The notes: generated by a model not told the origin, from the sequence alone. 64,000 nt of DNA from an uncultured Gemmatimonadota bacterium (GCA_951812955.1 OX638340.1:1792001-1856000), one strand, 5' to 3'. Counted from the first letter of the stretch, positions 10,787-60,266 are shown. Program-made: numbers and translations.

Positions 10787-12049
10787 CTAGAGTTTGTAAC
10801 AGCCGGCATTGATTTGACGAGTACCGCCTATCGACCCTTCATCCTCTGCACCAGAATCTTCGTTATCAACTTCCTCCGCCGCGTTAACGTCAACTACGCC
10901 CTCATTCACCATCATCCTCGCTTCCACCGCGCCTTTCTGATCCGGGTTGCAACTTATCACGCCCCAGTTGTAAACTCCCGCGAGATGATCATACAGGACC
11001 TGGGCCTCGACATCTTCTTCGATGGTAACGACGCCGGTATTGTACAATGTGGCGGTCCCTTCGAGAAAGTCGAATCGAGACTTCTGGAGCGTAACCGTGG
11101 TTTGCACGACCCACAGCGTCCCATCATAGAACACCACCCTGGTTTTCAGTGTGTCGCATTTTCTGGACAGGACTTCACTCAGGCTATCCGGGCACAGGAC
11201 CGTACCGATGCATATGAGACCGGCGAGGGCTCTGTCCAGTGAATCCTGATCTACTTCCTCGTGTATGGTGACGTTTTCGGTTGCGAAGATGCTCCTGTCC
11301 TTCCATGTCCGTATGTTTGTGGAGTTCAGAGACAGCTCGTGTTCCACGATCACAAAGCCCTCAGGAATCGCCCAGGTCAGCGGTGTGCCGGCCCTGGGAT
11401 CGAACCTGGATGCCAGCGTGGACAGGTTTTTCTCGCAGCAGAAGACTTTTCCCCTGACGTTGAGTGTCTTGATTTTTTGATCGATCAGTTTATCCGGCAC
11501 GGCCTGCACGATCTGCAGATCACCCGTGATGACCATGTCCGAGTCGTTGGCCATCGAAGCAAGGTAGACTTCATCCAGCAGGAGGTCGCCGACTACCAGA
11601 CGGGCGGAAGACCGGTAAGATGAATGACTTCCCGGGTTTTCCGTCAACCTGTTCATGATCGCTCCGGCTACGTGTTCAGGATAGAGGATGCTCCCTGAAT
11701 TGAGGATTCCGAACCACGAACTTTCCACGTCTTCAGCCTTGACATCAGGTTCCAGGATTATGCTGCCCGAGTTCATGATGAATAGCGGGGCTCCTTCGCC
11801 AGAGAGCGCTTCCCGGCCCATGACCTCCCTCGAATGAACGGTCATCAGTCTGACCTCTGTAGGAACTTCGATAACACTTCCCATATTGATGGTAAACATG
11901 GTCATAAGAGGCCTGGTTGCAGCGGATACCAGTACGTTCCCGGCGTTGACCTGCTTGATCCTCGATGCCGTCTGTTCCGTTGTTTCACGCATGTCCAGTG
12001 TACCGCAATTGATGCTGACCGAACGGGGGGTGCTTTTTTCGAGATTCAT
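10787..12049 (-). CDS. Hypothetical repeat-containing protein (N-x-GS-I/V beta-strand repeats), located downstream of the ECF sigma factor
   Basis: 420 aa with reiterated INMGSVIEVP / IMNSGSIILEP / ILNSGSILYPE / INCGTL / INAGCY motifs suggesting a beta-helix or beta-solenoid. No TM segment, acidic C-terminus. It lies 95 nt downstream of the sigma gene on the same strand. Confidence 0.5.
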   Translation of the reverse strand: MNLEKSTPRSVSINCGTLDMRETTEQTASRIKQVNAGNVLVSAATRPLMTMFTINMGSVIEVPTEVRLMTVHSREVMGREALSGEGAPLFIMNSGSIILEPDVKAEDVESSWFGILNSGSILYPEHVAGAIMNRLTENPGSHSSYRSSARLVVGDLLLDEVYLASMANDSDMVITGDLQIVQAVPDKLIDQKIKTLNVRGKVFCCEKNLSTLASRFDPRAGTPLTWAIPEGFVIVEHELSLNSTNIRTWKDRSIFATENVTIHEEVDQDSLDRALAGLICIGTVLCPDSLSEVLSRKCDTLKTRVVFYDGTLWVVQTTVTLQKSRFDFLEGTATLYNTGVVTIEEDVEAQVLYDHLAGVYNWGVISCNPDQKGAVEARMMVNEGVVDVNAAEEVDNEDSGAEDEGSIGGTRQINAGCYKL

Positions 12050-13098: not shown

Positions 13099-13120
13099 AC
13101 TGAGTTGCGAGGTGTCCCCT

Positions 13121-19385: not shown

Positions 19386-19463
19386 ATTCTGTTAAGCGGC
19401 GCCATGGCAGAGGAGATCATCGTAGGAGGCGACCGCGACGGATCAGACCTTGGTGGAGGACCC

Positions 19464-26246: not shown

Positions 26247-26492
26247 GTGACTCAGTCGGGGATTAGCATCCGCAACCAGATCCGGACCCTGCGGTTCCAC
26301 CACGGCGAGATGACGCAGCAGAAACTCGCCGACCAGGTCGGCGTCACCCGGCAGACGGTAAACGCGATCGAGGGTGGCAAGTATTCGCCATCGCTCGAGG
26401 TCGCGTTTCGGATTGCCCACGTGTTCGGCAAGCCGCTCGAAGAAGTGTTTCAGTACGTCGCAGCGTCCCGGGTGACGGCGACAAACTCGTGA
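26247..26492 (+). CDS. XRE family HTH transcriptional regulator
   Basis: QQKLADQVGVTRQTVNAIEGGKYSPSLEVAFRIAHVF helix-turn-helix; 81 aa. Confidence 0.75.
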   Translation: MTQSGISIRNQIRTLRFHHGEMTQQKLADQVGVTRQTVNAIEGGKYSPSLEVAFRIAHVFGKPLEEVFQYVAASRVTATNS

Positions 26493-30185: not shown

Positions 30186-31409
30186 TCAGGAATTTGAAAC
30201 ATTGGGCGGCCGCAACCCGACATATTTGGCCCGCGGCCGAATCAACTGGTCCCTTTCGTACTGCTCGATCGCGTGTCCGATCCAGCCGGCGGTGCGGCCC
30301 AGGGCGAACAGGGCCATGGCGCTTCCTTCGGGCATCTTAAGGACGCGAACCAGCGCCGTAAGGGCCAGGTCGATGTTGTACCTGTCCGGAATGAGCCGGT
30401 GGGTCGTATCGATGATTTCACGGGCAAGCTGCAGATCCTTCGAACCCGGAAATCGATCTTCCAGCTTGTGCAACAGCAGGCTCGCTCTCGGGTCCTCGCC
30501 GCGGTAAACGGCGTGCCCGAACCCTGGAATCTTCTCGCCAAGCCGCAGCCGGTGGGCGATCGCCAGTTCAGTGCTACCGGCCGATTCCACCTCTTGGAAC
30601 AGCGATTCGACGCGCTCGCTGGCCGCGCCGTGCTTATAGCCGCGCAGTGCGGCGAGTCCCGCGCAGACCGCGCTATAGGGCGTCGTACCTGCCGACGCGG
30701 CGCATCGCACCGTGAAGGTCGATACATTCAACTCGTGATCCGCGAACAGTACCAGCGTCGTATTGATCAACTCCGCCGCGCCATCTATATCCGCGGCCCA
30801 GGCCCTTCGCAAGGCCTGGGCGATCCCGCCCATCGGGTCTACGCCCGTGGCCACCCCCGTCATGAACCAGAGAATCCGCATGCCCGTAGCGGCGACCGCG
30901 TCCCTTCGCAGGTCCAGTGCGGCCAGGTCATCCGCCTCCGCAAGGGGCAGCAATGTTTGAAAGCGTTCGACGGGCTTCAGCGACTTCATTTTCAACCAGG
31001 ATTCCCGAAAATCTCTCTGGTAGGTATTTGAGAAAATCGGAAAGGAGAATCGTTTGTCTCCCGTCCAGATCAGTGCAGCGACGCGCTCAAACGATTCTTT
31101 CGCCGCAAGTATCGTCGCGTCGCGCCCTCTGTAAAACAACCTTTCGTCGGTGATCAGGGTAATGGCCGATTCAAGGATGGGATCTCCTGTATGCAAGGCG
31201 CGCTTGACCGCCCAGCCCGGATTCTGGCGGGCTTTCTTACGGGCCTTCAACCGCTCGATATCTTCACTGCGGTACAAACGCGTCCGCCGGCCGTCTCCGC
31301 TTTCTTCGGATCGGATCATGCCCCGGCTGACGTACGCATATAGTGTCGACGGATTGATGTTCAGTACGGAAGCCGCCTCGGTGGATGTCATGTATCTTCG
31401 GCTGTTCAT
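30186..31409 (-). CDS. Excisionase-type HTH domain fused to a citrate synthase-like domain (putative enzyme-derived regulator or divergent citrate synthase)
   Basis: The N-terminus MTSTEAASVLNINPSTLYAYVSRGMIRSEE...RLYRSEDIERL resembles HTH_17/Xis-like. The rest carries a citrate synthase fold with GFGHAVYRGEDPRA and the HELNVSTFTVR motif. Confidence 0.7.
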   Translation of the reverse strand: MNSRRYMTSTEAASVLNINPSTLYAYVSRGMIRSEESGDGRRTRLYRSEDIERLKARKKARQNPGWAVKRALHTGDPILESAITLITDERLFYRGRDATILAAKESFERVAALIWTGDKRFSFPIFSNTYQRDFRESWLKMKSLKPVERFQTLLPLAEADDLAALDLRRDAVAATGMRILWFMTGVATGVDPMGGIAQALRRAWAADIDGAAELINTTLVLFADHELNVSTFTVRCAASAGTTPYSAVCAGLAALRGYKHGAASERVESLFQEVESAGSTELAIAHRLRLGEKIPGFGHAVYRGEDPRASLLLHKLEDRFPGSKDLQLAREIIDTTHRLIPDRYNIDLALTALVRVLKMPEGSAMALFALGRTAGWIGHAIEQYERDQLIRPRAKYVGLRPPNVSNS

Positions 31410-31450
31410 GAATTAGTCCTCTCGAAAATGAGCTGTTTGGCGGACTGGGC

Positions 31451-31519
31451 CCGTGGCGTCACGGACGGGCCTGAGGTGTCAATGGCGGGCGCGTGGCGTC
31501 AATGGCGGGCCCGTGGTGG
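31451..31519. repeat. Three tandem ~20-bp direct repeats (consensus GCGTGGCGTCAATGGCGGGC) in the divergent promoter region
   Basis: Copies CCGTGGCGTCACGGACGGGC, TGAGGTGTCAATGGCGGGC and GCGTGGCGTCAATGGCGGGC plus a partial 4th copy are read directly. The same intergenic region holds an AT-rich imperfect palindrome TTGATAT...ATATCAA at 31598-31640. Confidence 0.6.
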
Positions 31520-32817: not shown

Positions 32818-33933
32818 ATGTCTTATTCACCCGGACTCAAGGACATCGTCGCGGCGGAAACTCGGCTGAGTCATGTAGATGGAGAAGCCGGCAAACTGGT
32901 CATCGGTGGATATCCGCTCGAAGGGATCGCGGAACGAGCGACGTACGAGGAGATGGCGCACCTACTCTGGCACGGGTCACTGCCTGACGCGGCCGCCCTG
33001 GATCGATTCGCTGGCGAACTGGCCGCCGGCCTCGCGCTATCCGGTACTTCGATCGACATCCTGCGGAACGCCGCGAAGGAACGCCGCCCCGTCATCGACG
33101 CCGTTCGCATGACCGTTGCCTCCCTTCCCTCCACCGACGATGCCGCGGACGCCCGGTCCCTGGTGACCGGATTGCCGATCGTCGTGGCAGCCTACTGGCG
33201 TCTTCTTCACGGGAAAGAACCTGTAGAACCCGACCCCGTCCTCGGTCACGTGGCCAACCTGCTGTACATGCTGCACGGCGAGATTCCCGGAGACGAACGT
33301 GTACGCGCACTCACGACATACCTCAACACCGTGATCGACCACGGCATGAACGCATCTACGTTCGCGGCACGCGTCATTGTGTCCACACGTTCCGACTTCA
33401 TCTCGGCTGTTACGGGCGCCATCGGCGCGCTTAAGGGTCCGTTGCACGGCGGGGCGCCGGGTCCGGTCATTTCCATGCTCGAAGCGATTGGCGACGCTGA
33501 CAACGCTGACGATGCAGAACGATACCTCCGCAAAAAACTTGAATCAGGTGAACGCCTCATGGGTTTCGGACATGCCGTGTATCGCGTTCGAGACCCGCGG
33601 GCCGATGTACTCTCGCGCGCCGCCAGATCCTTTTTCGCCGATGAAGACGAGCTATACGCCCTGGCCCTGCACGTCGAGAAGACCGCTATCGAACTGCTCG
33701 AAGAATACAAGCCAGGTCGGCGTCTGCAGACCAACGTGGAGTTCTATACCGCCCTGCTCCTCCGAGGGCTGGGCCTCCACCCGGACCTGTTCACCCCCAT
33801 GTTCGCCACGGGACGTGTCGCAGGTTGGGTTGCCCATTGCATGGAACAACGGTCCGTTGACCGCATCTTCCGGCCCGAGTCCCGGTATACGGGCATTGAA
33901 TCAAATCGCTGGACGCCGGTCGAAGATCGATGA
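32818..33933 (+). CDS. Citrate synthase / 2-methylcitrate synthase family enzyme
   Basis: GFGHAVYRVRDPRA, GPLHGGA and the HGMNASTFAARV motif; 371 aa. Confidence 0.8.
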   Translation: MSYSPGLKDIVAAETRLSHVDGEAGKLVIGGYPLEGIAERATYEEMAHLLWHGSLPDAAALDRFAGELAAGLALSGTSIDILRNAAKERRPVIDAVRMTVASLPSTDDAADARSLVTGLPIVVAAYWRLLHGKEPVEPDPVLGHVANLLYMLHGEIPGDERVRALTTYLNTVIDHGMNASTFAARVIVSTRSDFISAVTGAIGALKGPLHGGAPGPVISMLEAIGDADNADDAERYLRKKLESGERLMGFGHAVYRVRDPRADVLSRAARSFFADEDELYALALHVEKTAIELLEEYKPGRRLQTNVEFYTALLLRGLGLHPDLFTPMFATGRVAGWVAHCMEQRSVDRIFRPESRYTGIESNRWTPVEDR

Positions 33934-34029
33934 GCGACGGCAGTTTCTCAGTAGGGAATCGACTTTATCCTAATGGGGCCTTGTCAGTACTTCGGGGTTT
34001 TCTATAGTGCTAGCTATACGGTGCAATCC

Positions 34030-34049
34030 TATTGTACAATTGTACAATA
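34030..34049. promoter_or_regulatory. Perfect 20-bp palindrome TATTGTACAATTGTACAATA (two tandem TTGTACAA boxes)
   Basis: Read directly from the sequence, in the AT-rich intergenic region upstream of the PhyH gene at 34295. The TTGTACAA core recurs at 50788 and 56745. Confidence 0.5.
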
Positions 34050-34152
34050 CAAATCCGAATTGTCAGGTTTGATTCAAGTCCTTGATCGGTCCGAACGGAA
34101 TATACTGGCATTTAGCATTTCATGTTTTCATTTTAGTTGACGTCTGAGCGAC

Positions 34153-34247
34153 TGGCGCATCGGTCGACGGCTGACAAATTGGTCGGCGACTGGCGCAATG
34201 GTCGGCGGCATGCGCAATGGTCGGCGGCATGCGCAATGGTCGGCGGC
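34153..34247. repeat. Five tandem 19-bp direct repeats (TGGCGCAATGGTCGGCGGC-like), ending about 50 nt upstream of the PhyH start
   Basis: Units at 34153, 34172, 34191, 34210 and 34229; the last three are near-identical (A/TGCGCAATGGTCGGCGGC). They share a CAATGG...CGGC core with the 31451-31519 array. Confidence 0.65.
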
Positions 34248-34294
34248 TGGCACTTTCGAAAATCCCAGTATCGATTCCAGGAAAGGAATCCCCC

Positions 34295-35185
34295 ATGGCG
34301 ATGGTCGACATGAAACAGATCCACGGTCTGGAAGATGTCACGGGGCTGCTGACGCGTCCCGACGAACTACGACAACGTGCCGTGGAGCAAGGTTGTCTGT
34401 TCTTTCGCGGACTTCTCGATCCGGGGAGCGTCCTTGAGGTCCGGCGGCAGGTGCTCGGCGTGTGCCGGGACCACGGGTGGCTCGCGGATGAATCGGACCT
34501 GATGGATGGCGTCGCGAATCCCGGAATCCGCGTAGGTGAAAGCGGCATCCCTAGCTGGCAGGCCTTTTACGATGACGTGCAGCGGATCCGCGATTTTCAC
34601 GCGCTCGCACTGGACCCGTCGATGATCGGGATGCTGGAAGCGCTGTTCGGAGAAACGGTACTGGCCCACAGCCGGAATATCTGCAGGCTGGTGTTCCCGG
34701 ATATGAACGCCCACTCGACACCGCCCCACCAGGACAACTACTTCATCGGCGGATCGGACGAGACGTGGACGGCCTGGATTCCCCTGGGCGACTGTCCCGA
34801 GGAACTCGGCGGACTCGCCGTCAACCGGGGATCCCATCGCAGGGGCATGCTGGAGACGACCGAAGGCGTCGGACCCGGCGGGCGGCAGGTGTACGTCGAA
34901 GACGATTCCACCTGGGTCGGCGGCGACTATGAATGTGGCGACGTGATCATTCTCCACAGCCTGACGATCCACCAGGGCCGGGACAACGTGACATCTGACC
35001 GCCTCAGGATTTCGACCGACTACCGTTACCAGCCAAGAAGCCACCCGGTCCGGGAGGATTCACTCCAACCACACATGAACTGGTTGACCTGGGACGAGAT
35101 ATACGAACAGTGGGATGAGGAAGATCCGGTGAAGTACTACTGGAAGGGCTGGGACTTGGACGTGGTCACGCGGGAGCCTCGATAG
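34295..35185 (+). CDS. Phytanoyl-CoA dioxygenase (PhyH) family protein
   Basis: ORF 34217.. trimmed to the ATG at 34295 (AGGAAAGGAA RBS). The upstream part of the ORF is simply the translated repeat array. PPHQDNYF...GSHRRG motifs are present. Confidence 0.7.
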   Translation: MAMVDMKQIHGLEDVTGLLTRPDELRQRAVEQGCLFFRGLLDPGSVLEVRRQVLGVCRDHGWLADESDLMDGVANPGIRVGESGIPSWQAFYDDVQRIRDFHALALDPSMIGMLEALFGETVLAHSRNICRLVFPDMNAHSTPPHQDNYFIGGSDETWTAWIPLGDCPEELGGLAVNRGSHRRGMLETTEGVGPGGRQVYVEDDSTWVGGDYECGDVIILHSLTIHQGRDNVTSDRLRISTDYRYQPRSHPVREDSLQPHMNWLTWDEIYEQWDEEDPVKYYWKGWDLDVVTREPR

Positions 35186-35219
35186 GCGTCGCAGGGAGAG
35201 CAACCGGAGAAACGCCGCT

Positions 35220-36350
35220 GTGCGCATCGTGGGAGCCGCGCTGATCCGCTACTTGAACATGCCCAATTCCTTCTCCAAAACCGTCAAGCACCTGATTCGT
35301 CTCTTCCTCAGTAAACCGATGGCGGCACCGGTTGATATGACGGGACGCCACGTAATCGTAACCGGCGCGTCCCCTGGTTCGCTCGGGTACGAAACCGCGC
35401 GGGTCCTTGCGGGTTGGGGCGCGACGGTCGCAGCAACCTGCGTGCGCAATGTCCCTCTCATGGAAGCGACATTAAAAGACGACTTGCTTAAGCTAGGCGC
35501 CAGTGAGGACAACATCACGGCCCACAGGTTGGACCTCAGCGATCCGGACAGCGTAAACGACTTCGCCGCATGGTACCGCGACAGACACCAGGGTAAGCTC
35601 CACGTACTGGTCAACAACGCGGGCATCCACCGGAAGACCTTCGCACCACGCAAGCAGCCGCCGCTGGCCGAAGATGGCTTCGAAATACACTGGCGGACCA
35701 ACTACCTCGGCGCTTTTCACCTGACCTGGGTCCTGCTGCCCTTCCTGCAACGGACAGGACTCGAAAGCGGCGACGCACGCGTTGTCAACGTGTCCTCCGG
35801 CCTGCACGAACGGGTCGGGAACGAGGACCTTTTCGATGAGGGGACGCGCCACGGAGTGCCGCACCGCGAGGAGCCACGACAAGGAAGACCGCGCGACGGG
35901 GAGCCGCTCCAAGGGGAGCCGCGCTCCGATATGCCGCGCTACCACTCCTGGGACGCCTACGGAAAGTCGAAACTGGCGATGATCCACATGGCATTTGAGA
36001 TCGAAAGACGATTCGCCGAATCCCACAATCTGCACGCGGTGGCTGTGCATCCGGGTGTCGTGATGACCAACCTGACCCTTCCACAGGCGTTTCGTGGACT
36101 GTTGGGCAAGGCATTGCATCGAGTCAGTACCGCGCTGACCTCACTGGTCCTGCTGTCTCCGAATGCCGGGGCGCAGACCATTGTGATGTGTGCGAGCCAG
36201 CGGCAACTGCAAGGTGGGAAATACTACGAGCGCTGCGCCGTCGGCGAGCCGTCCGCGGACAGCCAGGACGAGACCGTGGCAAAACGCCTTTGGGACCTGT
36301 CGGAACTGTGGGCCGGGACGCTCGCACAGTCAGGTGGAGATGCCCGTTGA
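35220..36350 (+). CDS. Short-chain dehydrogenase/reductase (SDR) with an internal Pro/Arg/Glu-rich insertion
   Basis: VIVTGASPGSLGYETAR (TGxxxGxG), NNAG and YGKSK (YxxxK) motifs. There is an unusual insertion HREEPRQGRPRDGEPLQGEPRSD with a GGGGAGCCGC nucleotide repeat. The GTG start at 35220 is uncertain; alternative ATGs lie at 35259 and 35337. Confidence 0.65.
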   Translation: MRIVGAALIRYLNMPNSFSKTVKHLIRLFLSKPMAAPVDMTGRHVIVTGASPGSLGYETARVLAGWGATVAATCVRNVPLMEATLKDDLLKLGASEDNITAHRLDLSDPDSVNDFAAWYRDRHQGKLHVLVNNAGIHRKTFAPRKQPPLAEDGFEIHWRTNYLGAFHLTWVLLPFLQRTGLESGDARVVNVSSGLHERVGNEDLFDEGTRHGVPHREEPRQGRPRDGEPLQGEPRSDMPRYHSWDAYGKSKLAMIHMAFEIERRFAESHNLHAVAVHPGVVMTNLTLPQAFRGLLGKALHRVSTALTSLVLLSPNAGAQTIVMCASQRQLQGGKYYERCAVGEPSADSQDETVAKRLWDLSELWAGTLAQSGGDAR

Positions 36351-36495
36351 CGATTCATGAAGTCCGTACCGGTCCCATCATGTTCAGCTTGACTGCCAGG
36401 ATTCACAAACTGCACGGCATTCGCGGCTCACACGACTCTCACGGCACCCACGGCACGCAGAGTAAAACCGGAATCAATCCACAAGGACATGCAAT

Positions 36496-37257
36496 TTGGA
36501 CAGCGAACTACTGAAACGGGGATTCGCACCTCGGCCGCTGACGGACGCGCAACGCAGCGCGCTGGACACCGATGGCTTCATCGTGCTGGAGGAGGTCATC
36601 TCGCCAGACTGGCTCTCCGAACTGCGCCATGCATTCGATGAGATATTTGACAGCGAGGGCGATAGAGCCGGTGAGGAGGTCTCCCAGATGGAAGGGGTGC
36701 GCCGGCTTGCCGATCTGGTCAACAAGGGATCGGTATTCGATGCGGTTTACCTGCAGCCCGAGCTTTTGACGGCCGTCTACCATGTCCTGCAGAGGCCGTT
36801 CAAACTGCACTCGCTCAACGGGCACGACCCGCTTCCCAGCAACGGGTTACAGGTGCTGCACGCCGATTGGGGCCAACCTGCCGAGCCCGGCGGGCCGTAT
36901 CATGTCGTTAACTCTTTGTGGATGCTCGACGATTTCACCCTCGCCAACGGTGCGTCACGCTGCGTGCCGGGCAGCCACCTGAAACCCGGCAGGATCGGCG
37001 ACCTCGTAACGGACCGCCTGGCGGACCACCCCGACCAGGTACACCTGACGGGCCGTGCGGGATCGGTTGCCGTATTCAACGGCAGCCTCTGGCACAGCTC
37101 GTATGTCAACCTCAGCGGTGCCCCTCGCCGGACCCTGCACTGCGCCTTCATAGCCCGCGAACACCCGCAACAGACTAATCAGCGGGAGTATCTGCGGCCC
37201 GAGACCGCCCAACGGCTATCCCCACTGGCGCGCTACATCCTCGACGTCCCTCCGTAA
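36496..37257 (+). CDS. Phytanoyl-CoA dioxygenase (PhyH) family protein
   Basis: VLHADWG...PGSHLKPG...SLWHSS motifs. TTG start with an AAGGA RBS. Confidence 0.7.
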   Translation: MDSELLKRGFAPRPLTDAQRSALDTDGFIVLEEVISPDWLSELRHAFDEIFDSEGDRAGEEVSQMEGVRRLADLVNKGSVFDAVYLQPELLTAVYHVLQRPFKLHSLNGHDPLPSNGLQVLHADWGQPAEPGGPYHVVNSLWMLDDFTLANGASRCVPGSHLKPGRIGDLVTDRLADHPDQVHLTGRAGSVAVFNGSLWHSSYVNLSGAPRRTLHCAFIAREHPQQTNQREYLRPETAQRLSPLARYILDVPP

Positions 37258-42936: not shown

Positions 42937-43400
42937 GCGAGGTTATGAGAAACGCTAGTTCAGATTGCTTCCAAATCGTAGCGATATAGATCAGCGGACC
43001 AGGGAAGAGGGCATACCCTCTCAAGCGCTGCCGTCTAGCGCCATCCAAAGGCACCTGTCCGGCCGCCTTACAGAGAAGAAGTAAAATGACCCTGTGTCCG
43101 CCTCTGCATGGGCACCGGGGTTGTATTAAACCGGTTTGTCGACGAGCTTTTTATCCTCCTCGCCCGGTTGGTACTCCTTACATATCCTGGTGACCGGTTT
43201 TACCCGAACCTGACCAGACTCATCTTCCTCTGTTTATCACATGAAGCATACTGATCTACGGTTGCGCTGCTGTCTGCGAATGCTATATTGCCTCGTCGAC
43301 AACGTAAACGCACGCGACCCAAATGCACCCGAACCAAACGCACCTGAAGAAAATACACTCATAGCAAATGCACGCACCGAACAGGAAACGTTAGGATAGT

Positions 43401-46509: not shown

Positions 46510-46636
46510 GAGAACCTCATTAGAATCCGCGTCCTTCGCCAACTAGCGCTCCAGCAGTCGGCGACCGGCGGCGGCCATCTTCCCCGCAATCCGCTTATCT
46601 TCCTCGCGCTCCGACAAGTAGCAACAGGCCGCGGGA

Positions 46637-50641: not shown

Positions 50642-50900
50642 CTCAACACTCCTTCTGCTTCTGCTGTGCGCGCCTGATCATTGCCTCTACCGGGCCAACC
50701 TGACTTTGCGAACTTCGTTCATGGTTGATCTTTATGGACAGACATTCCCCTAAGCGTGCCGATAATTCAAGTTAAAGCGCCGGCTTAACGTTGTACAAGT
50801 TCCTTTCATCGACTTATTTTACCTTTTCATTCCTCAGGTCCGGACAATGCTTCGACGCCGGTAAGACCCGCACTGATCGTCTGATTACAGGAGGACTTCG

Positions 50901-51893
50901 ATGCTGATCGTCGATTCTCACCTCGATATCGCCTTCAACGCCCTAGAATGGGACCGGGACCTGTTCCAGCCCATCGCCAGGATCCGCGAAGCCGAGGCCG
51001 GCATGGGTCAGAAAGGACGCGGTCTGGGCGTAGTGAATTTCGAGGAACTGCGGCGCGGCGGGATCGGACTCATATTCGTCACGGTGAACTGCCGGATCGC
51101 TTCGATGGGGAAGCGTTTTGTCGGGGTGCGCACCCAGGACATCGCCTACGCCAAGTGCATGGGAGAACTGGCGTATTATCGCCTGATGGAATCTAAGGGT
51201 GCCTTTCGGCAGGTGCGTAACCGAACCGAACTCGACGCCCACTTGGCCGAGTGGGAAGCCGATCCCGAGACGACTCCGCTCGGGTTTGTCCTCAGCATGG
51301 AAGGGGCGGACGGCATCGTGGCGCCGGAGCAGGTGTCTGAGTGGTGGGATGAAGGGCTGAGAGTAGTCAGCCTGTGCCACTACGGGGTCAGCTCCTACGC
51401 CCATGGGACCCAGGCCCCCGGAGGCCTGACTGACAGGGGCCGCCCCATGCTCGAAGCCCTGGAAGCAGCCGGGGTGATCCTCGACGTGAGCCACCTGGCC
51501 GAGCAGGCGTTCTGGGAATCGATGGACGTCTTCAACGGCCCCGTGCTGGCCACCCACAACTGTTGCCGGGCGCTGTGCGACCACGATCGGCAGCTCGACG
51601 ATCGACAGATCAAGGCCCTGGCCGAGCGCGGAGGCGTCATCGGCACGGCGATGGATATCTGGATGATCTCCCCCCTGTGGGACCCGGTCGCGATGGACAA
51701 CAAGGCCATCACCTTTGAAACCGTGGTGGACCACATCGACCATGTCTGCCAGTTGACTGGGAGTGCGCGCCACGCCGCCATCGGGACCGACCTGGACGGC
51801 GGCTACGGCAAGGAACAAAGTCCCGCCGATATGGAGACCATCGCCGATCTTCGGAAAATACCCGCCATCCTCGAACGTCGCGGCTATTCATAG
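50901..51893 (+). CDS. Membrane dipeptidase (peptidase family M19)
   Basis: MLIVDSHLD N-terminus, HNCCRAL, and the VIGTAMD / GTDLDGG region typical of renal-dipeptidase homologues. Confidence 0.7.
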   Translation: MLIVDSHLDIAFNALEWDRDLFQPIARIREAEAGMGQKGRGLGVVNFEELRRGGIGLIFVTVNCRIASMGKRFVGVRTQDIAYAKCMGELAYYRLMESKGAFRQVRNRTELDAHLAEWEADPETTPLGFVLSMEGADGIVAPEQVSEWWDEGLRVVSLCHYGVSSYAHGTQAPGGLTDRGRPMLEALEAAGVILDVSHLAEQAFWESMDVFNGPVLATHNCCRALCDHDRQLDDRQIKALAERGGVIGTAMDIWMISPLWDPVAMDNKAITFETVVDHIDHVCQLTGSARHAAIGTDLDGGYGKEQSPADMETIADLRKIPAILERRGYS

Positions 51894-52083
51894 ACCGACA
51901 TTGCGGACATAATGCATGGCAATTGGGTACGGACGTTGCGCGCGGCGTGGAGTTGATTTAAACGGAATCGTACATTGATCTATGGCGGTTCCTGCTTCGC
52001 GCATCGGGGACGAAGTTGCCGAGTGGTCCCACATATGCCACGCAGCCAATACATGCAGTCGAATGAATCCGGAGGCCCGACTG

Positions 52084-53196
52084 ATGCCTGAAACACCCGT
52101 GTTCCAACGACACACGATCTACGAAGGAACGCCCGCCGAACGCATGTCGTGCATCGTGGGCGACCTCGACAACGATGGCGTTCCCGAGTTCATCATCCCC
52201 ACCCGCAATCCGGATGAACTCGTCTGGTTCGGGAGAACGGGCCAGGGCGAATGGGAACCGCACCTGATGGACGATACTTTTCCAAGCATCAGCGTTGGCG
52301 CCGCCATGGTGGACCTGACCGGTAGCGGCAAGCTCGATTTGATTTCCGGCACCAGTGACCGCGGTAATTTCATCTACTGGTGGGAATGCCCCGACGATCC
52401 CACCCAGCGGTGGACGCGGCGCGTGGTCTTCGAGCTTCCCCACAACCGGATCCACGACATGATCCTGGCGGACATCGACGGGGACGGAAGACAGGAATTA
52501 TACGTCTGGAACCCGGACGAGGAATTGATTCTTACGGTCCCGGTGCCCGACGATCCATACGTGACCCCCTGGCCCGGCGTCCGCAAGATAGACACCGGTG
52601 TAAACGAACAGGCGCTCGACGTTGCCGACGTCGACGGGGACGGACGGCTCGAGCTCATCGCCGGGACTTCCTGGTACCGCCTGCTGGAGAACGGCGAATG
52701 GGAAAGACATGTTTTCGCCGAGGGCTATGGCGGCGTACGGGTTGGAGCCGCAGACTTCGACGGGGACGGCCGTATCGAGATCGCCCTCTGCGAGGTGGCC
52801 CTCGACATCGGCCAGACCTATGGCCGACTCGCGATATTCAGACCGGGGGCGGACGTGGAGAAACCATGGGAAGCCAAAATCCTGCACGACCGGTTGCTCG
52901 ATGCGCACACGCTCCAGGTGGCGGACTTCGACGGCGACGGACGGCCCGACATCTACGTGGGAGAGATGGGCCGTGGGGACTGGACTCTTCCGCATCCACC
53001 CCAGCAGATACTCTTCCTGAGCCGTGGGGACCGGATGGAGCAGCACGTCATCGATACGGGGATCGGAACGCACGAGGCCCAGGTCATCGAACTGGACGGG
53101 AAGGTCGGCATCATCAGCAAGCCCTACCGCTGGCTCCAGGACACCGCGCCGAGACCGCAGTTGGTGGACAACCTCTACCTGTACCTGCCGGAATAA
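52084..53196 (+). CDS. FG-GAP / VCBS repeat beta-propeller protein
   Basis: ORF trimmed to the ATG at 52084 (GGAGG RBS). Repeated DxDGDGR motifs (DIDGDGRQEL, DVDGDGRLEL, DFDGDGRIEI, DFDGDGRPDI). Confidence 0.55.
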   Translation: MPETPVFQRHTIYEGTPAERMSCIVGDLDNDGVPEFIIPTRNPDELVWFGRTGQGEWEPHLMDDTFPSISVGAAMVDLTGSGKLDLISGTSDRGNFIYWWECPDDPTQRWTRRVVFELPHNRIHDMILADIDGDGRQELYVWNPDEELILTVPVPDDPYVTPWPGVRKIDTGVNEQALDVADVDGDGRLELIAGTSWYRLLENGEWERHVFAEGYGGVRVGAADFDGDGRIEIALCEVALDIGQTYGRLAIFRPGADVEKPWEAKILHDRLLDAHTLQVADFDGDGRPDIYVGEMGRGDWTLPHPPQQILFLSRGDRMEQHVIDTGIGTHEAQVIELDGKVGIISKPYRWLQDTAPRPQLVDNLYLYLPE

Positions 53197-56635: not shown

Positions 56636-56666
56636 TATAAGACCTCACGCGGTGATGGGAAGGCCG

Positions 56667-56732
56667 CACGCCGGAAACGCCAGTCGGGTCGACTTTACGA
56701 CATAAAGCACGCCGGAAACGCCAGTCGGGTCG
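56667..56732. repeat. Perfect 25-bp direct repeat CACGCCGGAAACGCCAGTCGGGTCG x2 (copies at 56667 and 56708)
   Basis: Read directly from the sequence, in the intergenic region between the enolase-superfamily gene and the gene at 56835. Confidence 0.65.
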
Positions 56733-56744
56733 GCCTGACATTCT

Positions 56745-56764
56745 AATGTACAATTGTACATTAG
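56745..56764. promoter_or_regulatory. Perfect 20-bp palindrome TAATGTACAATTGTACATTA
   Basis: Read directly. It shares the TGTACAATTGTACA core with 34030-34049 and lies ~70 nt upstream of the ATG at 56835. Confidence 0.5.
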
Positions 56765-56834: not shown

Positions 56835-58382
56835 ATGCAGAAACCGAAACTGATCCACTACAACGACGCCCGGCACTACAGTATTTACCGGTACGAACCG
56901 CCCATGAGCTTGCATCAGTGGCGTCAGCCCGTGGACGAGATCCTGGGGACCGACGTGGATACCCTGGTCTATGGCCTGGGATCGGGCGAGACCTTTCTGC
57001 ACGGTACGCAGGCGGGGCTGAAGTGGGGCGAGGACGTCGAAAAGCACAACATGAGCATGATGTGGTGGACTGCGACGGAGAATTTGAACCTGGCACTCGA
57101 AGCGGGGATCGATCCGCTCGCTGTGGCGGTGGAGAGAGCGCACGAAAAAGGACGGCGCATCCTGGGAAGCCTGCGGATGACAGAACCCACCTCTCCGGAC
57201 GACGACAATCCCTACATGCTGGGCCGCCTCAAGCGCGAACATCCGGAAGTCATGATCGGCGGGAACCATCCCGACTACCCCCGAGCTGCTGGATGCGCGG
57301 ATTACACCCACGAGAGCGTGCGCTCGGAGCGGCTAAGCGTCATCGAGGAGGTGTGCGGCCGGTACGGAATGGATGGGTTGGAATTTGATCCCTATGTGGG
57401 CGTGTTCTTTAATCCCACCGAAGCCCGGGAGAAAACGCCCGTACTCACGGAGTTCGTCAGGGAAGTGCGCAGGCTGCTCGATCGTGTCGGCGCTGCCCGC
57501 GGTCAATCGCTGTGTCTGGCCGTGAGAGTGCGTAGTACCGAGGAGGCGAATCTCGCGTTGGGCATGGACGTGCGCGGGTGGCTGAACGAGGGTCTGTTGG
57601 ATATCGTCGCCCTGTGGACCGAAAGTTTCCTCTTCGACCAAGAGATGCCGATTGGTTGGCTGGTCGAAGCGGCGTCCGGCTCGCAGACGCCGGTCTACCC
57701 CATGCTGGGACGAACACCGTACGACGACCGCCACCACCTGCCAACGATCGAGATGTACCGGGCCGCGGCGGCAAACTACAGCGCCATGGGGACGGACGGG
57801 CTGTACCTGCTGGACCTGCCCTGGCCGCACACGGAACGCGAATACCAGATCTTCCGCGAGATGAGCGACCCGGACATCCATCTCAGGAAGAAGAAGCATT
57901 ACTTTCCTGCGCAAAGGGAACCGAACGCCGAGCCTCACTCTCCGGAGCGGAATCTCCCTATGGATCTGGAGGAAGGAGCGCCCGTCCAGGTGCCGTTCCT
58001 GGTTGGCGACGATTTGGACGCTGCCCGGGACGACGGCGAACTCAAGGCGGCAAGGCTTGGGGTACGCATCCTGAGGACCTGCCCCGAAGACCTGTACATG
58101 TTCCGGTTCAACGATGCGGTGATCGGACCAGCGGAGATCACCCACATCTATGGCGGTGTGGTGTCATATACAGCCCACAGATCCGGTCTCCCGGAACGCA
58201 TCGACACCCACTACTGGTTCGACTTCGATCTTCCCATCGAACTGGTCCGGGAGGGCCAGAACGAGTTGGAAGTCGTCCTCGAACAACGCCATGCGCCTTT
58301 AGGCAAGGACCGCGAACTACAACAGGTCGAGTTGATCGTGGAATACAGGGAGCCCCATGTACCGGTGGGCGGGCAGATGTGA
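56835..58382 (+). CDS. Hypothetical protein (515 aa), possibly a TIM-barrel glycosyl-hydrolase-like fold
   Basis: Long ORF with protein-like composition and no confident family assignment. The GHL10/DUF-type resemblance is weak. Confidence 0.45.
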   Translation: MQKPKLIHYNDARHYSIYRYEPPMSLHQWRQPVDEILGTDVDTLVYGLGSGETFLHGTQAGLKWGEDVEKHNMSMMWWTATENLNLALEAGIDPLAVAVERAHEKGRRILGSLRMTEPTSPDDDNPYMLGRLKREHPEVMIGGNHPDYPRAAGCADYTHESVRSERLSVIEEVCGRYGMDGLEFDPYVGVFFNPTEAREKTPVLTEFVREVRRLLDRVGAARGQSLCLAVRVRSTEEANLALGMDVRGWLNEGLLDIVALWTESFLFDQEMPIGWLVEAASGSQTPVYPMLGRTPYDDRHHLPTIEMYRAAAANYSAMGTDGLYLLDLPWPHTEREYQIFREMSDPDIHLRKKKHYFPAQREPNAEPHSPERNLPMDLEEGAPVQVPFLVGDDLDAARDDGELKAARLGVRILRTCPEDLYMFRFNDAVIGPAEITHIYGGVVSYTAHRSGLPERIDTHYWFDFDLPIELVREGQNELEVVLEQRHAPLGKDRELQQVELIVEYREPHVPVGGQM

Positions 58383-58496
58383 TCGAAGGACCGGGGTGCT
58401 TGATTTGCATGGCCGGACGCCATAAACACATTAATTAAATCGAAACTGCGATTTGGTTTCAAATCTATCAAGTAGTTATCAGCAGGGATCGACGCC

Positions 58497-59345
58497 ATGA
58501 AGCTTTGCACAGTACAACCTCACATGTCGGACTCGATTTCCGAGAACGTGATTGAAATCACCAGGTGGGTTCAAAGGGCCGCCGGTGAAGGCGCAGATGT
58601 GGTGCTGTTTCCTGAAATGATGCTGACTGGTTACGACCATCAACTACATGATCTGTTTAAGGATACCCGTTGGCATAGGCAGGTTGATGAAGCGCTGTCT
58701 GAACTAAGTGACGTGGTCGACGCATCTGGAACTAGCGCATTCGTAGGAATGCCATATCCTTATGGCGGTGGTCATCTCAACGCGCTTGTACTGCTTCAAC
58801 CGGAAAGCGACGCTGTTCTCGCTGGTGCCAGGTCCCATTTGCCGGTGGGGGATAGAAACCGATGGGGATTCGTAGAACCTGAAAACCGCGTTCCCACGGA
58901 CTTCCATGGCATTTCATTCGGATCGATATTCTGCGCCGAAGCGCATCATCTCGACTACACACAGGGAAAGGGTCTGGAGAAAAGCGATGTAATACTCTGG
59001 CCCGGCGTTGTCGGGAGCGATCATAACGAAAAGAGTGAGGTCACCACGGATTGGAACGTTGAGCTGGCAAGGAAAATCGCCATTTTCTACAATGTCCCAG
59101 TGCTCCAGTCAAACTATCTTACCTATGCCACTGACATTTCCACCCAGTCAATGCTGGAAAGTAACCGAATGCTGGGTGGCTCCATTGCCTGTGATGCATC
59201 TGGACAGGTTCTCGATCAAGCCTCTCGGAAAGACGAAGAAATACGGTGGTTCGAGTTGAGTCGTGTAAACGGAACTGTCAAAGTAACCGCATTGGATACG
59301 ACGCATCAGGCCGAATGTTCTGGTGAGGCCCGTTCAATTGAATAG
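58497..59345 (+). CDS. Carbon-nitrogen hydrolase (nitrilase superfamily)
   Basis: VVLFPEM (Glu), K, and FCAE (Cys) catalytic triad context. GC is lower than the flanks. Confidence 0.65.
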   Translation: MKLCTVQPHMSDSISENVIEITRWVQRAAGEGADVVLFPEMMLTGYDHQLHDLFKDTRWHRQVDEALSELSDVVDASGTSAFVGMPYPYGGGHLNALVLLQPESDAVLAGARSHLPVGDRNRWGFVEPENRVPTDFHGISFGSIFCAEAHHLDYTQGKGLEKSDVILWPGVVGSDHNEKSEVTTDWNVELARKIAIFYNVPVLQSNYLTYATDISTQSMLESNRMLGGSIACDASGQVLDQASRKDEEIRWFELSRVNGTVKVTALDTTHQAECSGEARSIE

Positions 59346-60207
59346 TGTTTCCGACTTCGACGAATTGTGGGACTACAACGATCTGGTGAAGACCGAAAAG
59401 GACTTCCGTGAACTGCTGCCCGAATCACGGGCCTCCGGAGACCCCGAATACCACACCCAACTTCTCACCCAAATTGCGCGCACCCACAGCCTTCGACGGC
59501 AATTCGACGAAGCTCACAGCATCCTAGATGATGCCGAGGCGCTGCTCAGCGACAAGATCCCGGTCGCGCGTGTCCGATACCTCCTCGAGCGCGGCCGCAC
59601 CTTCAATTCAGCGGGCGAAATTGATGCTGCCCGTCCGCTCTTCGAGGAAGCCTGTGATCTGGCGCGCGGGATCGGTGCGGACTACCACGCCGTGGACGCG
59701 GCGCACATGATTGGGATCTGCGAGACAGGCGATAAAGCACTGCGGTGGAACGAAACTGCGATGGATATGGCGGAAGCTTCCCCCGATGCCCGCGCGAAGG
59801 AATGGCTCGGTGCGCTCTACAACAACACGGGGTGGACGTACCACGACGCGGGGGAGTACCATTGTGCGCTGGAACGCTTCGAAAAAGGCCTGGCGTGGCG
59901 CGTCGAACGGAACGATCCTGTTACCATACGGATCGCAAAATGGTCCGTTGCCAGGGCATTGCGCTCACTGGGTCGTGCAGTCGAGGCCCTGGATATGCAA
60001 CGGTCTCTGCTCGCGGAGCACGAATCGGAGGGCACGAAGGACGGCTACGTTTACGAAGAACTCGCCGAGTGCCTTCTAATCCTTGGAAAGGCAGACGATG
60101 CGCGGCCTTTCTTCAACCTCGCGTACCATGAATTGTCGAAGGACGCCTGGCTGAAGGAAAATGAAAGGGGTCGTCTCGACCGGCTTCAGCGGTTTGGTAA
60201 ACTGTAG
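59323..60207 (+). CDS. TPR repeat-containing protein
   Basis: Helical-repeat composition (W-LG-Y, A-F-A patterns). The start is uncertain because it overlaps the upstream gene by 23 nt. Confidence 0.5.
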   Translation: MRPVQLNSVSDFDELWDYNDLVKTEKDFRELLPESRASGDPEYHTQLLTQIARTHSLRRQFDEAHSILDDAEALLSDKIPVARVRYLLERGRTFNSAGEIDAARPLFEEACDLARGIGADYHAVDAAHMIGICETGDKALRWNETAMDMAEASPDARAKEWLGALYNNTGWTYHDAGEYHCALERFEKGLAWRVERNDPVTIRIAKWSVARALRSLGRAVEALDMQRSLLAEHESEGTKDGYVYEELAECLLILGKADDARPFFNLAYHELSKDAWLKENERGRLDRLQRFGKL

Positions 60208-60266
60208 TCAGCGTTAGTCAGCTTGAGTCAGCGTTAGTCGGCGTGAGACAGCTCGAGTCAACGTGG
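60207..60266. repeat. Six tandem 10-bp repeats (GTCAGCGTTA-like) overlapping the TPR gene stop
   Basis: The units GTCAGCGTTA, GTCAGCTTGA, GTCAGCGTTA, GTCGGCGTGA, GACAGCTCGA and GTCAACGTGG are read directly. Confidence 0.6.

What the first reader, a model, noticed from the sequence alone, without database searches (positions are those of the whole stretch)
34030..34049. Recurring TTGTACAA / TGTACAATTGTACA palindromic boxes in three intergenic regions
Perfect 20-bp palindromes built on the same core occur twice:
- TATTGTACAATTGTACAATA at 34030-34049, upstream of PhyH 34295;
- TAATGTACAATTGTACATTA at 56745-56764, upstream of the gene at 56835.

A single TTGTACAA box also lies at 50788-50795 upstream of the M19 dipeptidase gene (50901).

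An AT-rich 8-mer palindrome is expected less than once by chance in 64 kb of 60% GC DNA, and all three instances are promoter-proximal on the plus-strand side of plus-strand genes. This is likely the operator of a dimeric regulator (the GT-AC core is reminiscent of GntR-family sites) controlling several accessory enzyme genes. No cognate regulator gene is obvious in the window.
Basis: seen in the sequence. Interest (0 to 1): 0.55.

Follow-up and report, generated by a model that had tools for sequence, protein, structure and literature searches.

The report
Orphan antitoxin (YefM/Phd-type) operator palindromes
The recurring TGTACAATTGTACA palindromes are real and conserved, and they match the DNA site that a toxin-antitoxin module uses to switch itself off; here, with no such module within 64 kb, they sit in front of ordinary enzyme genes, which suggests the antitoxin also controls those genes.

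Summary
The window's two longest perfect palindromes (20 bp at 34030-34049, 22 bp at 56743-56764) share the 14-mer TGTACAATTGTACA. A single TTGTACAA box lies upstream of the M19 dipeptidase gene.

The GntR idea is not supported. A scan of 185,579 genomes with the 20-bp consensus gave 47 loci. In 21 of them, from at least seven phylum-level groups, the palindrome overlaps the promoter of a conserved PIN(VapC-like)-Phd/YefM toxin-antitoxin operon. E. coli YefM binds TGTACA-core palindromes (L repeat TCATTGTACAATGA). These antitoxins keep YefM's SEARQ motif and the arginines aligned with its DNA-binding R10 and R31.

The window comes from a Gemmatimonadota lineage. Its closest relative (94-96% protein identity) carries this operon elsewhere, with the identical 14-mer in its promoter. 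The same palindrome is kept upstream of the GHL10-like gene in at least seven other assemblies, while the flanks diverge. In related genomes it precedes PhyH, aldehyde dehydrogenase and M24 peptidase genes.

Best reading (about 0.55): orphan antitoxin operators that tie a small, evolutionarily labile set of enzyme genes to a toxin-antitoxin repressor. Binding and regulation are inferred, not shown. Site 1 is a recent acquisition.

The parts
34030..34049 (.). Site 1: 20-bp perfect palindrome TATTGTACAATTGTACAATA (two abutting TTGTACAA boxes), 97 bp after the citrate synthase stop and 245 bp before the PhyH start
   Evidence: Kept in L180 (96% identical PhyH). Absent in L181 (88%) and L182 (83%).
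56743..56764 (.). Site 2: 22-bp perfect palindrome CTAATGTACAATTGTACATTAG, 70 bp before the start of the GHL10-like gene
   Evidence: It is the only invariant block in an 8-genome alignment of this intergenic region. Also seen.
50791..50798 (.). Site 3: single TTGTACAA box, 102 bp upstream of the M19 dipeptidase gene (possibly one antitoxin-dimer site)
   Evidence: TTGTACAAGT is conserved in L123 within otherwise diverged sequence. L124/L125 carry TTGTAAAGTTGTACAG (13 of 16) upstream of the same gene. No TGTACA occurs anywhere in L182, including the DNA upstream of its M19 gene.
11040..11047 (.). Fourth TTGTACAA, inside ORF 10787-12049(-); probably a chance occurrence
56735..56762 (+). Sigma-70-like promoter match CTGACA-16 nt-TACATT; the palindrome fills its spacer and -10 box, the same layout as the TA-operon promoters of relatives (TTGACA-N6-TGTACAATTG-TACAAT)
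   Evidence: 9 of 12 matches. Compare. This is a consensus match only.
33981..34008 (+). Sigma-70-like promoter match TTGTCA-16 nt-TATAGT, 22 bp upstream of site 1; this would place the palindrome just downstream of the transcription start (roadblock position)
   Evidence: 10 of 12 matches. This is a consensus match only.
34295..37257 (+). Putative target operon of site 1: PhyH dioxygenase (34295-35185), short-chain dehydrogenase (35220-36350), PhyH (36496-37257)
   Evidence: Pfam. Same gene order in L180 and L181.
56835..60207 (+). Putative target operon of site 2: GHL10/DUF187-like 515-aa protein (56835-58382), carbon-nitrogen hydrolase (58497-59345), TPR protein (59323-60207)
   Evidence: (homologues carry PF02638).
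50901..53196 (+). Putative target of site 3: M19 dipeptidase (50901-51893) and FG-GAP repeat protein (51982-53196)
34148..34251 (.). 19-bp tandem repeat (5.5 copies) between site 1 and PhyH; copy number differs in L180. Probably not part of the operator
56666..56733 (.). Two 26-bp direct repeats (GCACGCCGGAAACGCCAGTCGGGTCG, period 42) just upstream of site 2. Relatives have other repeats at this position

Best explanation
The palindromes are operators of the Phd/YefM-antitoxin type (TGTACA boxes). The likely binder is the Phd-family antitoxin, alone or in complex with its PIN/VapC-like toxin, of a chromosomal toxin-antitoxin operon. That operon lies outside this window in the same Gemmatimonadota genome.

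In the operon's own promoter, the palindrome covers the spacer and -10 box (TTGACA-N6-TGTACAATTG-TACAAT), which gives classical autorepression. In the window, the same 14-bp core with the same A/T flanks sits in or just after predicted promoters of two enzyme operons: PhyH-SDR-PhyH, and GHL10-like with CN-hydrolase and TPR. A half-length box precedes the M19 dipeptidase gene.

Inferred mechanism: while antitoxin is abundant it occupies these orphan operators and holds the enzyme genes down. When the labile antitoxin is degraded, or the toxin:antitoxin ratio rises, the TA operon and the orphan-operator genes are derepressed together.

Shown:
- The motif is non-random and confined to intergenic DNA.
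- Site 2 is conserved across species.
- The motif is tightly associated with PIN-Phd operons across phyla.
- That operon, with the identical core, is present in the closest relative.
- The antitoxin is homologous to YefM, including the arginines aligned with its DNA-binding residues.

Inferred:
- The window's own genome carries the operon.
- The antitoxin binds the orphan sites.
- That binding changes transcription.
For: 1. Statistics. The two sites are the longest palindromes in the window and share an identical 14-mer.

2. Genome-wide scan. The pattern TANTGTACAATTGTACANTA gave 47 loci. Of these, 28 are in DNA of at least 57% GC, where I estimate fewer than 1 by chance even if all 596 Gb had that composition.

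3. Association with the TA operon. In 21 of the 47 loci a ~130-aa PIN gene followed by a 72-107-aa Phd/YefM gene lies next to the palindrome, which starts 8-25 bp before the start codon. They come from Gemmatimonadota, Chlorobi, Ignavibacteria, Spirochaetes, Bacteroidota, Chloroflexi and Thermotogae (Pfam; local HMMs; layout).

4. Published operator. The E. coli YefM operator has TGTACA cores, an L repeat TCATTGTACAATGA, and a footprint covering the -10 box (PMC1802561). R10 and R31 are essential for its DNA binding (PMC4803016).

5. Protein homology. The antitoxin family has invariant A9-R10-Q11 and nearly invariant R30. Its profile hits the E. coli YefM structure 2a6q (E=1.4e-4) and aligns SEARQ and the I-x-R-x-x-G stretch with YefM (hhalign 94.8%).

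6. Closest relative. OY762445.1 (94-96% aa identity) has PIN-Phd in conserved synteny (iPGM-ROK-...-PIN-Phd-efflux), with TTGACAtaatgaTGTACAATTGTACAATA, then GGGAGG and GTG. The same module occurs in other species of the clade. That genome also has orphan sites before GHL10 (L147) and an aldehyde dehydrogenase (L172).

7. Footprint. The palindrome is the only invariant block upstream of GHL10 orthologues in 8 genomes, down to 81% protein identity. Two of these (L121, L123) were retrieved by protein, not by motif.

8. Promoter layout. Site 2 overlaps a promoter match with the same architecture as the TA promoter.

9. Other orphan sites. They precede PhyH (L140, L143, L164), ALDH (L134, L172) and M24 peptidase (L152). 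All 16 GC-rich sites not next to a TA module are intergenic.
Against: - No PIN or Phd gene or remnant exists in the window (hmmsearch, tblastn). The window's exact genome could not be retrieved, so presence of the operon there is inferred from relatives.
- Box spacing is 8 bp centre-to-centre, not the 12 bp of characterised yefM-yoeB operators. Stoichiometry and geometry of binding are therefore unknown.
- Site 1 is found only in a 96%-identical relative and lies in an expanded, repeat-rich spacer. It may be a recent and possibly neutral acquisition.
- Site 2 is missing in relatives at 80% (L124/L125) and 71% (L189) identity, although L124's genome has the TA operon.
- Five of the eight genomes in the footprint alignment were found through the motif itself (ascertainment bias).
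- Promoter calls are consensus matches in a phylum whose promoters are uncharacterised.
- Regulation of non-TA genes by antitoxins has few experimentally documented cases, and none of them involves a Phd/YefM-type antitoxin.
Confidence: 0.55

Rival explanations
1. An unrelated dedicated transcription factor encoded elsewhere recognises the palindrome at the enzyme-gene promoters, and the resemblance to the TA operator is coincidental or convergent. Candidates are GntR/HutC; PadR (ATGT-N8-ACAT); CopY/BlaI (TACAnnTGTA); LexA-like (TGT-N8-ACA); or one of the XRE or MarR proteins.
For: The sequence formally fits several published half-site rules (my own knowledge of those consensus sequences). The window has three small XRE-HTH genes and an ECF sigma factor. 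OY762445 has two MarR genes beside its PIN-Phd operon. No regulator is adjacent to any orphan site, so the binder is not directly identified.
Against: None of these families was found next to the palindrome in any of the 47 scan loci or the loci later fetched by protein. By contrast, PIN-Phd is adjacent in 21 of the 47, plus the 13 loci fetched through Phd proteins, which carry PIN-Phd by construction. The MarR genes are missing from the TA loci of sister species, which keep the palindrome. An exact 14-bp match plus matching flanks to the operator of a repressor present in the same genome makes independent recognition by a second factor unnecessary.
Confidence: 0.17
2. The sites are relics or captured copies of the TA-operon promoter. 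In this view they act simply as promoter elements (the palindrome contains TACAAT in both directions) or are neutral leftovers, with no trans-regulatory meaning.
For: The palindrome itself supplies a good -10 hexamer, and at site 2 it forms a 9-of-12 promoter match. Site 1 is young, sits in a spacer 208 bp longer than in L181 (361 vs 153 bp), and is flanked by unstable tandem repeats. Sites are gained and lost between close species.
Against: Both halves of the palindrome, not just one -10 hexamer, are perfectly kept upstream of GHL10 while the flanks diverge to about 50% column identity. No PIN/Phd remnant flanks either site, and the flanks of the two sites share nothing else. If the cognate repressor is present, an intact operator will be bound whatever its origin, so this rival largely merges with the main explanation.
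Confidence: 0.18
3. The palindrome works at the RNA level, as a hairpin that terminates or stabilises the upstream transcript (citrate synthase, or the MR_MLE enzyme).
For: Both sites lie about 100 nt downstream of a same-strand gene. They can fold into 8-9-bp hairpins of -7.9 and -12.8 kcal/mol (z = -2.5 and -3.9).
Against: The stems are A/U-rich and no T-run follows. No terminator-like site was found and there is no Rfam match. In TA loci the palindrome sits between a -35 box and a Shine-Dalgarno sequence, not after a gene. Sequence, not merely pairing, is invariant, with no compensatory changes.
Confidence: 0.03
4. The MerR-type HTH::citrate-synthase fusion protein encoded at 30186-31409(-) binds the palindrome. 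The motif contains GTAC-N4-GTAC, reminiscent of the MerR operator.
For: It is the only sizeable regulator-like gene near site 1, 2.6 kb away. The resemblance to the MerR dyad rests on my own knowledge.
Against: Relative L181 keeps the fusion gene and its synteny but has no palindrome. The gene is absent from all TA-type loci. The predicted promoter spacers are 16 nt, not the 19-20 nt typical of MerR promoters. No inverted repeat was found in the fusion gene's own divergent promoter region.
Confidence: 0.03

Closest known systems
E. coli yefM-yoeB operator (paired TGTACA palindromes; Kedzierska et al. 2007, PMC1802561)
   Same: Same core hexamer, and the same 8-mer TTGTACAA as in the L repeat TCATTGTACAATGA. 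Two boxes overlap the -10 region of the TA promoter. The binder is a Phd/YefM-fold antitoxin with the SEARQ motif and arginines aligned with R10 and R31.
   Different: The boxes are 8 bp apart centre-to-centre and fuse into one 14-22-bp perfect palindrome, not 12 bp apart. The partner toxin is a PIN/VapC-like protein, not YoeB. The toxin gene comes first. In the window the operator is not next to any TA gene.
MqsA and similar antitoxins reported to regulate non-TA genes (MqsA at rpoS/csgD, PMC4894380; SavRS at virulence genes, PMC5913840)
   Same: Operator-like palindromes identical to the TA operon's own operator occur at promoters of unrelated genes, which implies an antitoxin-controlled regulon.
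   Different: The antitoxin fold differs (Phd/YefM rather than HTH-Xre). The evidence here is purely comparative: conservation of orphan sites across species. The targets are accessory catabolic enzymes rather than stress or virulence regulators. The phylum is uncultivated-clade Gemmatimonadota.
VapBC (PIN-domain) type II toxin-antitoxin modules
   Same: PIN-domain toxin paired with a small DNA-binding antitoxin, with autoregulation through a promoter-overlapping palindrome.
   Different: Canonical vapBC has the antitoxin gene first. Here the order is operator-PIN-Phd in every locus examined.
GntR/HutC-family operators
   Same: Short A/T-rich palindrome with a GT...AC core.
   Different: No GntR gene is associated with the motif in any locus. 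The association is with Phd/YefM antitoxins.

Membership tests
Phd/YefM-antitoxin operator (TGTACA box) | One or more 5'-TGTACA-3' core palindromes, often extended (TTGTACAA) | tested here: met
   Definition taken from PMC1802561.
Phd/YefM-antitoxin operator (TGTACA box) | Paired boxes at 12 bp centre-to-centre, as in characterised yefM-yoeB operators | tested here: not met
   The boxes are 8 bp centre-to-centre in every site, both TA-linked and orphan.
Phd/YefM-antitoxin operator (TGTACA box) | Lies in the promoter of, and next to, the TA operon it autoregulates | tested here: not met
   No PIN or Phd gene or remnant in the 64-kb window. The feature is met for the identical motif in 21 of 47 genome loci and in the TA locus of the closest relative.
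Phd/YefM-antitoxin operator (TGTACA box) | A cognate antitoxin with a YefM-like N-terminal DNA-binding domain (equivalents of R10 and R31) is present in the genome | tested here: inconclusive
   Present in OY762445.1 (94-96% aa identity to the window) and in sister species. The window's own genome was not retrievable.
Phd/YefM-antitoxin operator (TGTACA box) | Direct binding by the antitoxin or TA complex | not testable with these tools
   Needs EMSA, footprinting or ChIP.
Antitoxin-controlled regulon beyond the TA operon (MqsA-like) | Operator copies at promoters of non-TA genes, kept by selection | tested here: met
   The site upstream of GHL10 is invariant in 8 genomes. All 16 GC-rich orphan sites are intergenic. 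However, sites turn over: they are absent in L124/L125 and L189, and site 1 is young.
Antitoxin-controlled regulon beyond the TA operon (MqsA-like) | Expression of the target genes depends on the antitoxin | not testable with these tools
   Needs reporter fusions or transcriptomics.
GntR-family operator | A cognate GntR-family regulator associated with the site (adjacent or co-occurring) | tested here: not met
   No protein reached the Pfam GntR threshold among the 50 window ORFs scanned; the only hit, 19.3 bits against a cut-off of 27, is in an XRE-type HTH protein. No GntR domain was found among the neighbours scanned in other loci.
MerR-type operator | Dyad inside an over-long (19-20 bp) -35/-10 spacer, with co-occurrence of the MerR-family gene | tested here: not met
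   Predicted spacers are 16 nt. L181 keeps the MerR-HTH::citrate-synthase gene but lacks the palindrome.
Intrinsic terminator or structured RNA | G+C-rich stem followed by a T-run, or a match to an RNA family with covariation | tested here: not met
   No terminator-like site. No Rfam match. Sequence is invariant, with no compensatory changes.

The most novel reading that the evidence does not exclude
In an uncultivated marine Gemmatimonadota clade (some of the closest MAGs carry isolate labels that may point to a sponge origin; this was not checked), a vertically inherited, toxin-first PIN-Phd module has been domesticated. Its YefM-like antitoxin acts as a true transcription factor for a small, fast-turning-over regulon of accessory enzymes: GHL10-like hydrolase, PhyH dioxygenases, aldehyde dehydrogenase and peptidases. 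Their expression is thereby coupled to antitoxin stability, which acts as a stress signal. If so, this would be comparative-genomic evidence, from orphan operators conserved across species, that antitoxins can own regulons, a claim that has few documented experimental cases.
Probability: 0.4. Interest if true: 0.65.

Novelty: new variant of a known kind. Interest (0 to 1): 0.5.

Why it matters
Whether toxin-antitoxin repressors control anything beyond their own operon rests on a few experimental cases, such as MqsA and SavRS. Here the evidence is independent of any experiment. An operator identical to that of a conserved PIN-Phd module is held perfectly constant in front of an unrelated enzyme gene across several species, while the surrounding DNA drifts. 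That makes a concrete, testable prediction: one protein, three short DNA targets, and a handful of target genes in a phylum with almost no known regulation.

It also documents two other things. The first is a widespread toxin-first PIN-Phd family found in at least seven phylum-level groups. The second is a compact 8-bp-spaced double TGTACA operator, which differs from the 12-bp arrangement studied in E. coli.

On the cautious reading, the finding is simply a known type of operator seen out of its usual context.

Tried and rejected
- Cognate regulator in the window. Pfam was run on 50 ORFs. It found three XRE-HTH proteins, an ECF sigma factor and a MerR-HTH::citrate-synthase fusion. None is adjacent to a site, and none recurs at the motif elsewhere.
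- BlaI/CopY idea. The ~130-aa neighbour genes looked like BlaI by size, and the motif contains TACAnnTGTA. I rejected this when Pfam showed they are PIN domains.
- Idea that the small genes downstream of PIN would be MerR/excisionase-type (HTH_17) antitoxins. Rejected: the small genes are Phd/YefM.
- Exact-protein look-ups of window proteins. These failed, so the source genome is not on record and relatives had to be used.
- Mobile-element idea. The flanks of sites 1 and 2 share nothing but the palindrome, and they match no other locus.
- TA pseudogene next to the sites. tblastn found nothing better than E=0.006, in unrelated places.
- RNA explanations. There is no Rfam hit, no terminator, and only weak A/U hairpins.
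- Viral contigs.
- Literature. No paper contains the 14-mer string.
- Single-sequence search of the antitoxin against PDB. This was negative; only the family profile reached YefM.
- Metagenome scan. Not used, because the genome scan had already given enough.

Full report
**Observation**

- TATTGTACAATTGTACAATA is at 34030-34049.
- TAATGTACAATTGTACATTA is at 56744-56763 and extends to a 22-bp perfect palindrome at 56743-56764.
- A single TTGTACAA is at 50791-50798.

The two long sites are the longest perfect palindromes in the window; the next longest is 14 bp. They share the 14-mer TGTACAATTGTACA. TTGTACAA occurs 4 times against 0.39 expected, and none of 100 shuffles reaches 4. No further site within three mismatches of the 14-mer is intergenic. 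Of the 19 TGTACA hexamers in the window, the five in intergenic DNA all belong to these three sites.

**Context in the window**

- Site 1 lies between a citrate synthase gene (32818-33933) and a PhyH / short-chain dehydrogenase / PhyH cluster (34295-37257).
- Site 2 lies between an enolase-superfamily gene (55397-56635) and a 515-aa protein whose homologues carry the GHL10/DUF187 domain (56835-58382). A carbon-nitrogen hydrolase and a TPR protein follow.
- Site 3 precedes an M19 dipeptidase gene.

Pfam scans of 50 ORFs found no regulator next to any site. The window holds only three small XRE-type HTH proteins, an ECF sigma factor and a MerR-HTH::citrate-synthase fusion, all located elsewhere.

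**Relatives and conservation**

The window's exact proteins are not on record. Homologues of the GHL10-like protein led to syntenic contigs.
- The palindrome is present upstream of that gene in L121/L122 (95% identity) and L123 (83%).
- It is degenerate or absent in L124/L125 (80%) and absent in L189 (71%).
- The TTGTACAAGT box upstream of M19 is kept in L123 within otherwise diverged DNA. L124/L125 have a 13-of-16 double box, TTGTAAAGTTGTACAG, upstream of the same gene.
- Site 1 is kept in L180 (96%) but absent in L181 (88%, intergenic spacer 153 bp instead of 361 bp) and in L182 (83%).

So site 2 is old, site 1 is recent, and sites turn over between species.

**The decisive scan**

I searched one genome per species (185,579 species) for TANTGTACAATTGTACANTA. 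This returned 47 loci. Twenty-eight are in DNA of at least 57% GC, where I estimate fewer than one chance match. Gemmatimonadota (11 loci), Latescibacterota (4) and unnamed 3.5-3.9-Mb MAG chromosomes (7) dominate.

In locus after locus, the palindrome lies 8-25 bp before the start codon of a ~130-aa gene that is followed by a 72-107-aa gene. Pfam shows these are a PIN domain protein and a Phd/YefM antitoxin. HMMs built from them find the pair next to the palindrome in 21 of the 47 loci. These come from Gemmatimonadota, Chlorobi, Ignavibacteria, Spirochaetes, Bacteroidota, Chloroflexi and Thermotogae, and there is none in the window.

Oriented on the PIN gene, the loci show a sigma-70-like promoter that the palindrome overlaps. 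Examples include:
- TTGACA-N6-TGTACAATTG-TACAAT, followed by GGAGG and the start codon.
- TTGACN-17 nt-TAnTGT, where the -10 box is the left edge of the palindrome.

**Link to known biology**

The E. coli YefM antitoxin represses yefM-yoeB by binding two palindromes with TGTACA cores. The stronger one is TCATTGTACAATGA, and the footprint covers the -10 box (PMC1802561). Arginines R10 and R31 are essential for its DNA binding (PMC4803016).

The antitoxins found here have an invariant A9-R10-Q11 within a conserved Y-T-Y-S-E-A-R-Q stretch, and a nearly invariant R30 in I-R-R-K-D-G. Their profile reaches the E. coli YefM structure 2a6q (E=1.4e-4).

The motif is therefore best described as a YefM/Phd-type operator. 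Two TTGTACAA boxes are fused at 8-bp spacing instead of the 12 bp seen in E. coli.

**Who is the window organism, and does it have the module?**

Proteins flanking site 2 are 94-96% identical to those of OY762445.1 (a 3.91-Mb MAG chromosome) and of 'Gemmatimonadetes bacterium APA_bin_41'.

A search with the antitoxin found 75-97% identical copies in many Gemmatimonadota contigs. One is on OY762445.1, in conserved synteny (iPGM-ROK-[MarR-MarR]-PIN-Phd-efflux pump). Its promoter reads cgTTGACAtaatgaTGTACAATTGTACAATAttagaaGGGAGGtatcagcGTG.

Sister species carry the same module at the same place, with the same or a one-mismatch core. The module therefore looks vertically inherited in this clade. 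The window's genome very probably has it too, outside these 64 kb; this is an inference.

**Orphan sites**

Sixteen GC-rich loci have the palindrome without a TA module. All are intergenic and lie upstream of a gene:
- GHL10 orthologues: L127, L147, L161, L162, L170.
- A PhyH dioxygenase followed by creatininase: L140, with the same PhyH ortholog downstream in L143 and L164.
- Aldehyde dehydrogenases: L134, L172.
- An M24 peptidase: L152.
- Others.

OY762445.1 and IRC1_bin_16 each have both a TA-linked site and orphan sites.

An alignment of the GHL10 upstream region from eight genomes has 50% mean column identity. Its one invariant block is A-n-TGTACAATTGTACA-n-TA. Five of the eight genomes were found through the motif, so this alignment cannot say how often the site is absent. 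The protein-based sample gives presence in two of four lineages.

At site 2, a promoter match (CTGACA-16-TACATT) has the same layout as the TA promoter. At site 1, a match (TTGTCA-16-TATAGT) ends 22 bp upstream of the palindrome.

**Mechanism proposed**

The Phd antitoxin, probably with PIN as co-repressor as in other type II systems, binds its own promoter and the orphan operators. The enzyme operons are then expressed when antitoxin levels fall. The binding and its transcriptional effect at the window sites are inferred. I put the whole chain at about 0.55.

**Rivals**

- An unrelated regulator (0.17).
- Promoter relics with no trans-regulation (0.18). This applies most to site 1, which is young and sits beside an unstable 19-bp tandem repeat.
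- An RNA hairpin (0.03). There is no T-run, no Rfam hit and no covariation.
- The nearby MerR-HTH::citrate-synthase fusion (0.03). L181 keeps the gene but lacks the palindrome.

**Novelty and verdict**

The kind of element is known: an antitoxin operator with a TGTACA core. Three things are unusual:
- The operator stands alone in front of enzyme genes and is conserved there.
- The two boxes are 8 bp apart.
- The associated module is toxin-first PIN-Phd.

I rate this as a new variant of a known kind, with interest 0.5. Its interpretation is partly right (operator of a dimeric repressor, no regulator in the window) and partly wrong (not GntR).

Noticed in passing
window 30186-31409 (-): A 407-aa protein with an N-terminal MerR/HTH_17 DNA-binding domain fused to a citrate-synthase-like domain. 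It is divergent from an isocitrate/isopropylmalate dehydrogenase gene and a citrate synthase gene, and is conserved with the same synteny in L180 and L181. It may be a metabolite-sensing regulator built on an enzyme fold.
   Followed up: partly
window 31447-31516, 34148-34251, 43306-43373, 60205-60264; also 56666-56733: Intergenic tandem or direct repeats of 10-20 bp (period 42 at 56666) are frequent upstream of genes in this genome. The 19-bp array at 34148 differs in copy number from the 96%-identical relative L180. Relatives have unrelated 17-bp arrays just upstream of the palindrome at the GHL10 gene (L127, L161, L162).
   Followed up: partly
L126-L188 (e.g. L176 5586-6249; L155 989-1601): A widespread type II module with the toxin gene first (operator-PIN-Phd/YefM), found in at least seven phylum-level groups with a nearly identical 20-bp operator. 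In the Gemmatimonadota clade it sits at a fixed syntenic position (ROK kinase upstream, metal-efflux genes downstream).
   Followed up: partly
L031 1221-1518 (IMGVR_UViG_3300022668_000017): An A/T-rich viral contig (28% GC) carries 13 GTGTACAA/TTGTACAC boxes within about 300 bp of non-coding DNA, including four exact TGTACAATTGTACA copies. No PIN or Phd gene is nearby. It may be an origin or a repressor-binding array.
   Followed up: partly
window 19404-20303, 34295-35185, 36496-37257, 45772-46542, 62942-63736: Five PhyH-family (phytanoyl-CoA dioxygenase-like) genes lie in 64 kb, alongside several HAD hydrolases, two HIT proteins and ADOP-type MacB/FtsX permeases. This is an unusually dense set of accessory enzymes.
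   Followed up: no
window 7952-8272, 12992-13435, 26247-26492; 12145-12654 (-): Three small XRE-family HTH proteins, and an ECF sigma factor followed by a 420-aa ORF with no Pfam match (10787-12049). That ORF contains the fourth TTGTACAA.
   Followed up: no
L129 7051-7070 and L157 2954-2973 (Pirellulales MAGs): The same palindrome, with extended symmetric flanks (CGGATAnTGTACAATTGTACAnTAT(T)CGG), occurs in two Planctomycetota genomes. It lies next to radical-SAM and Na/Ca-exchanger genes in one, and a MetE-like gene in the other, with no TA genes in the 8-kb loci.
   Followed up: partly
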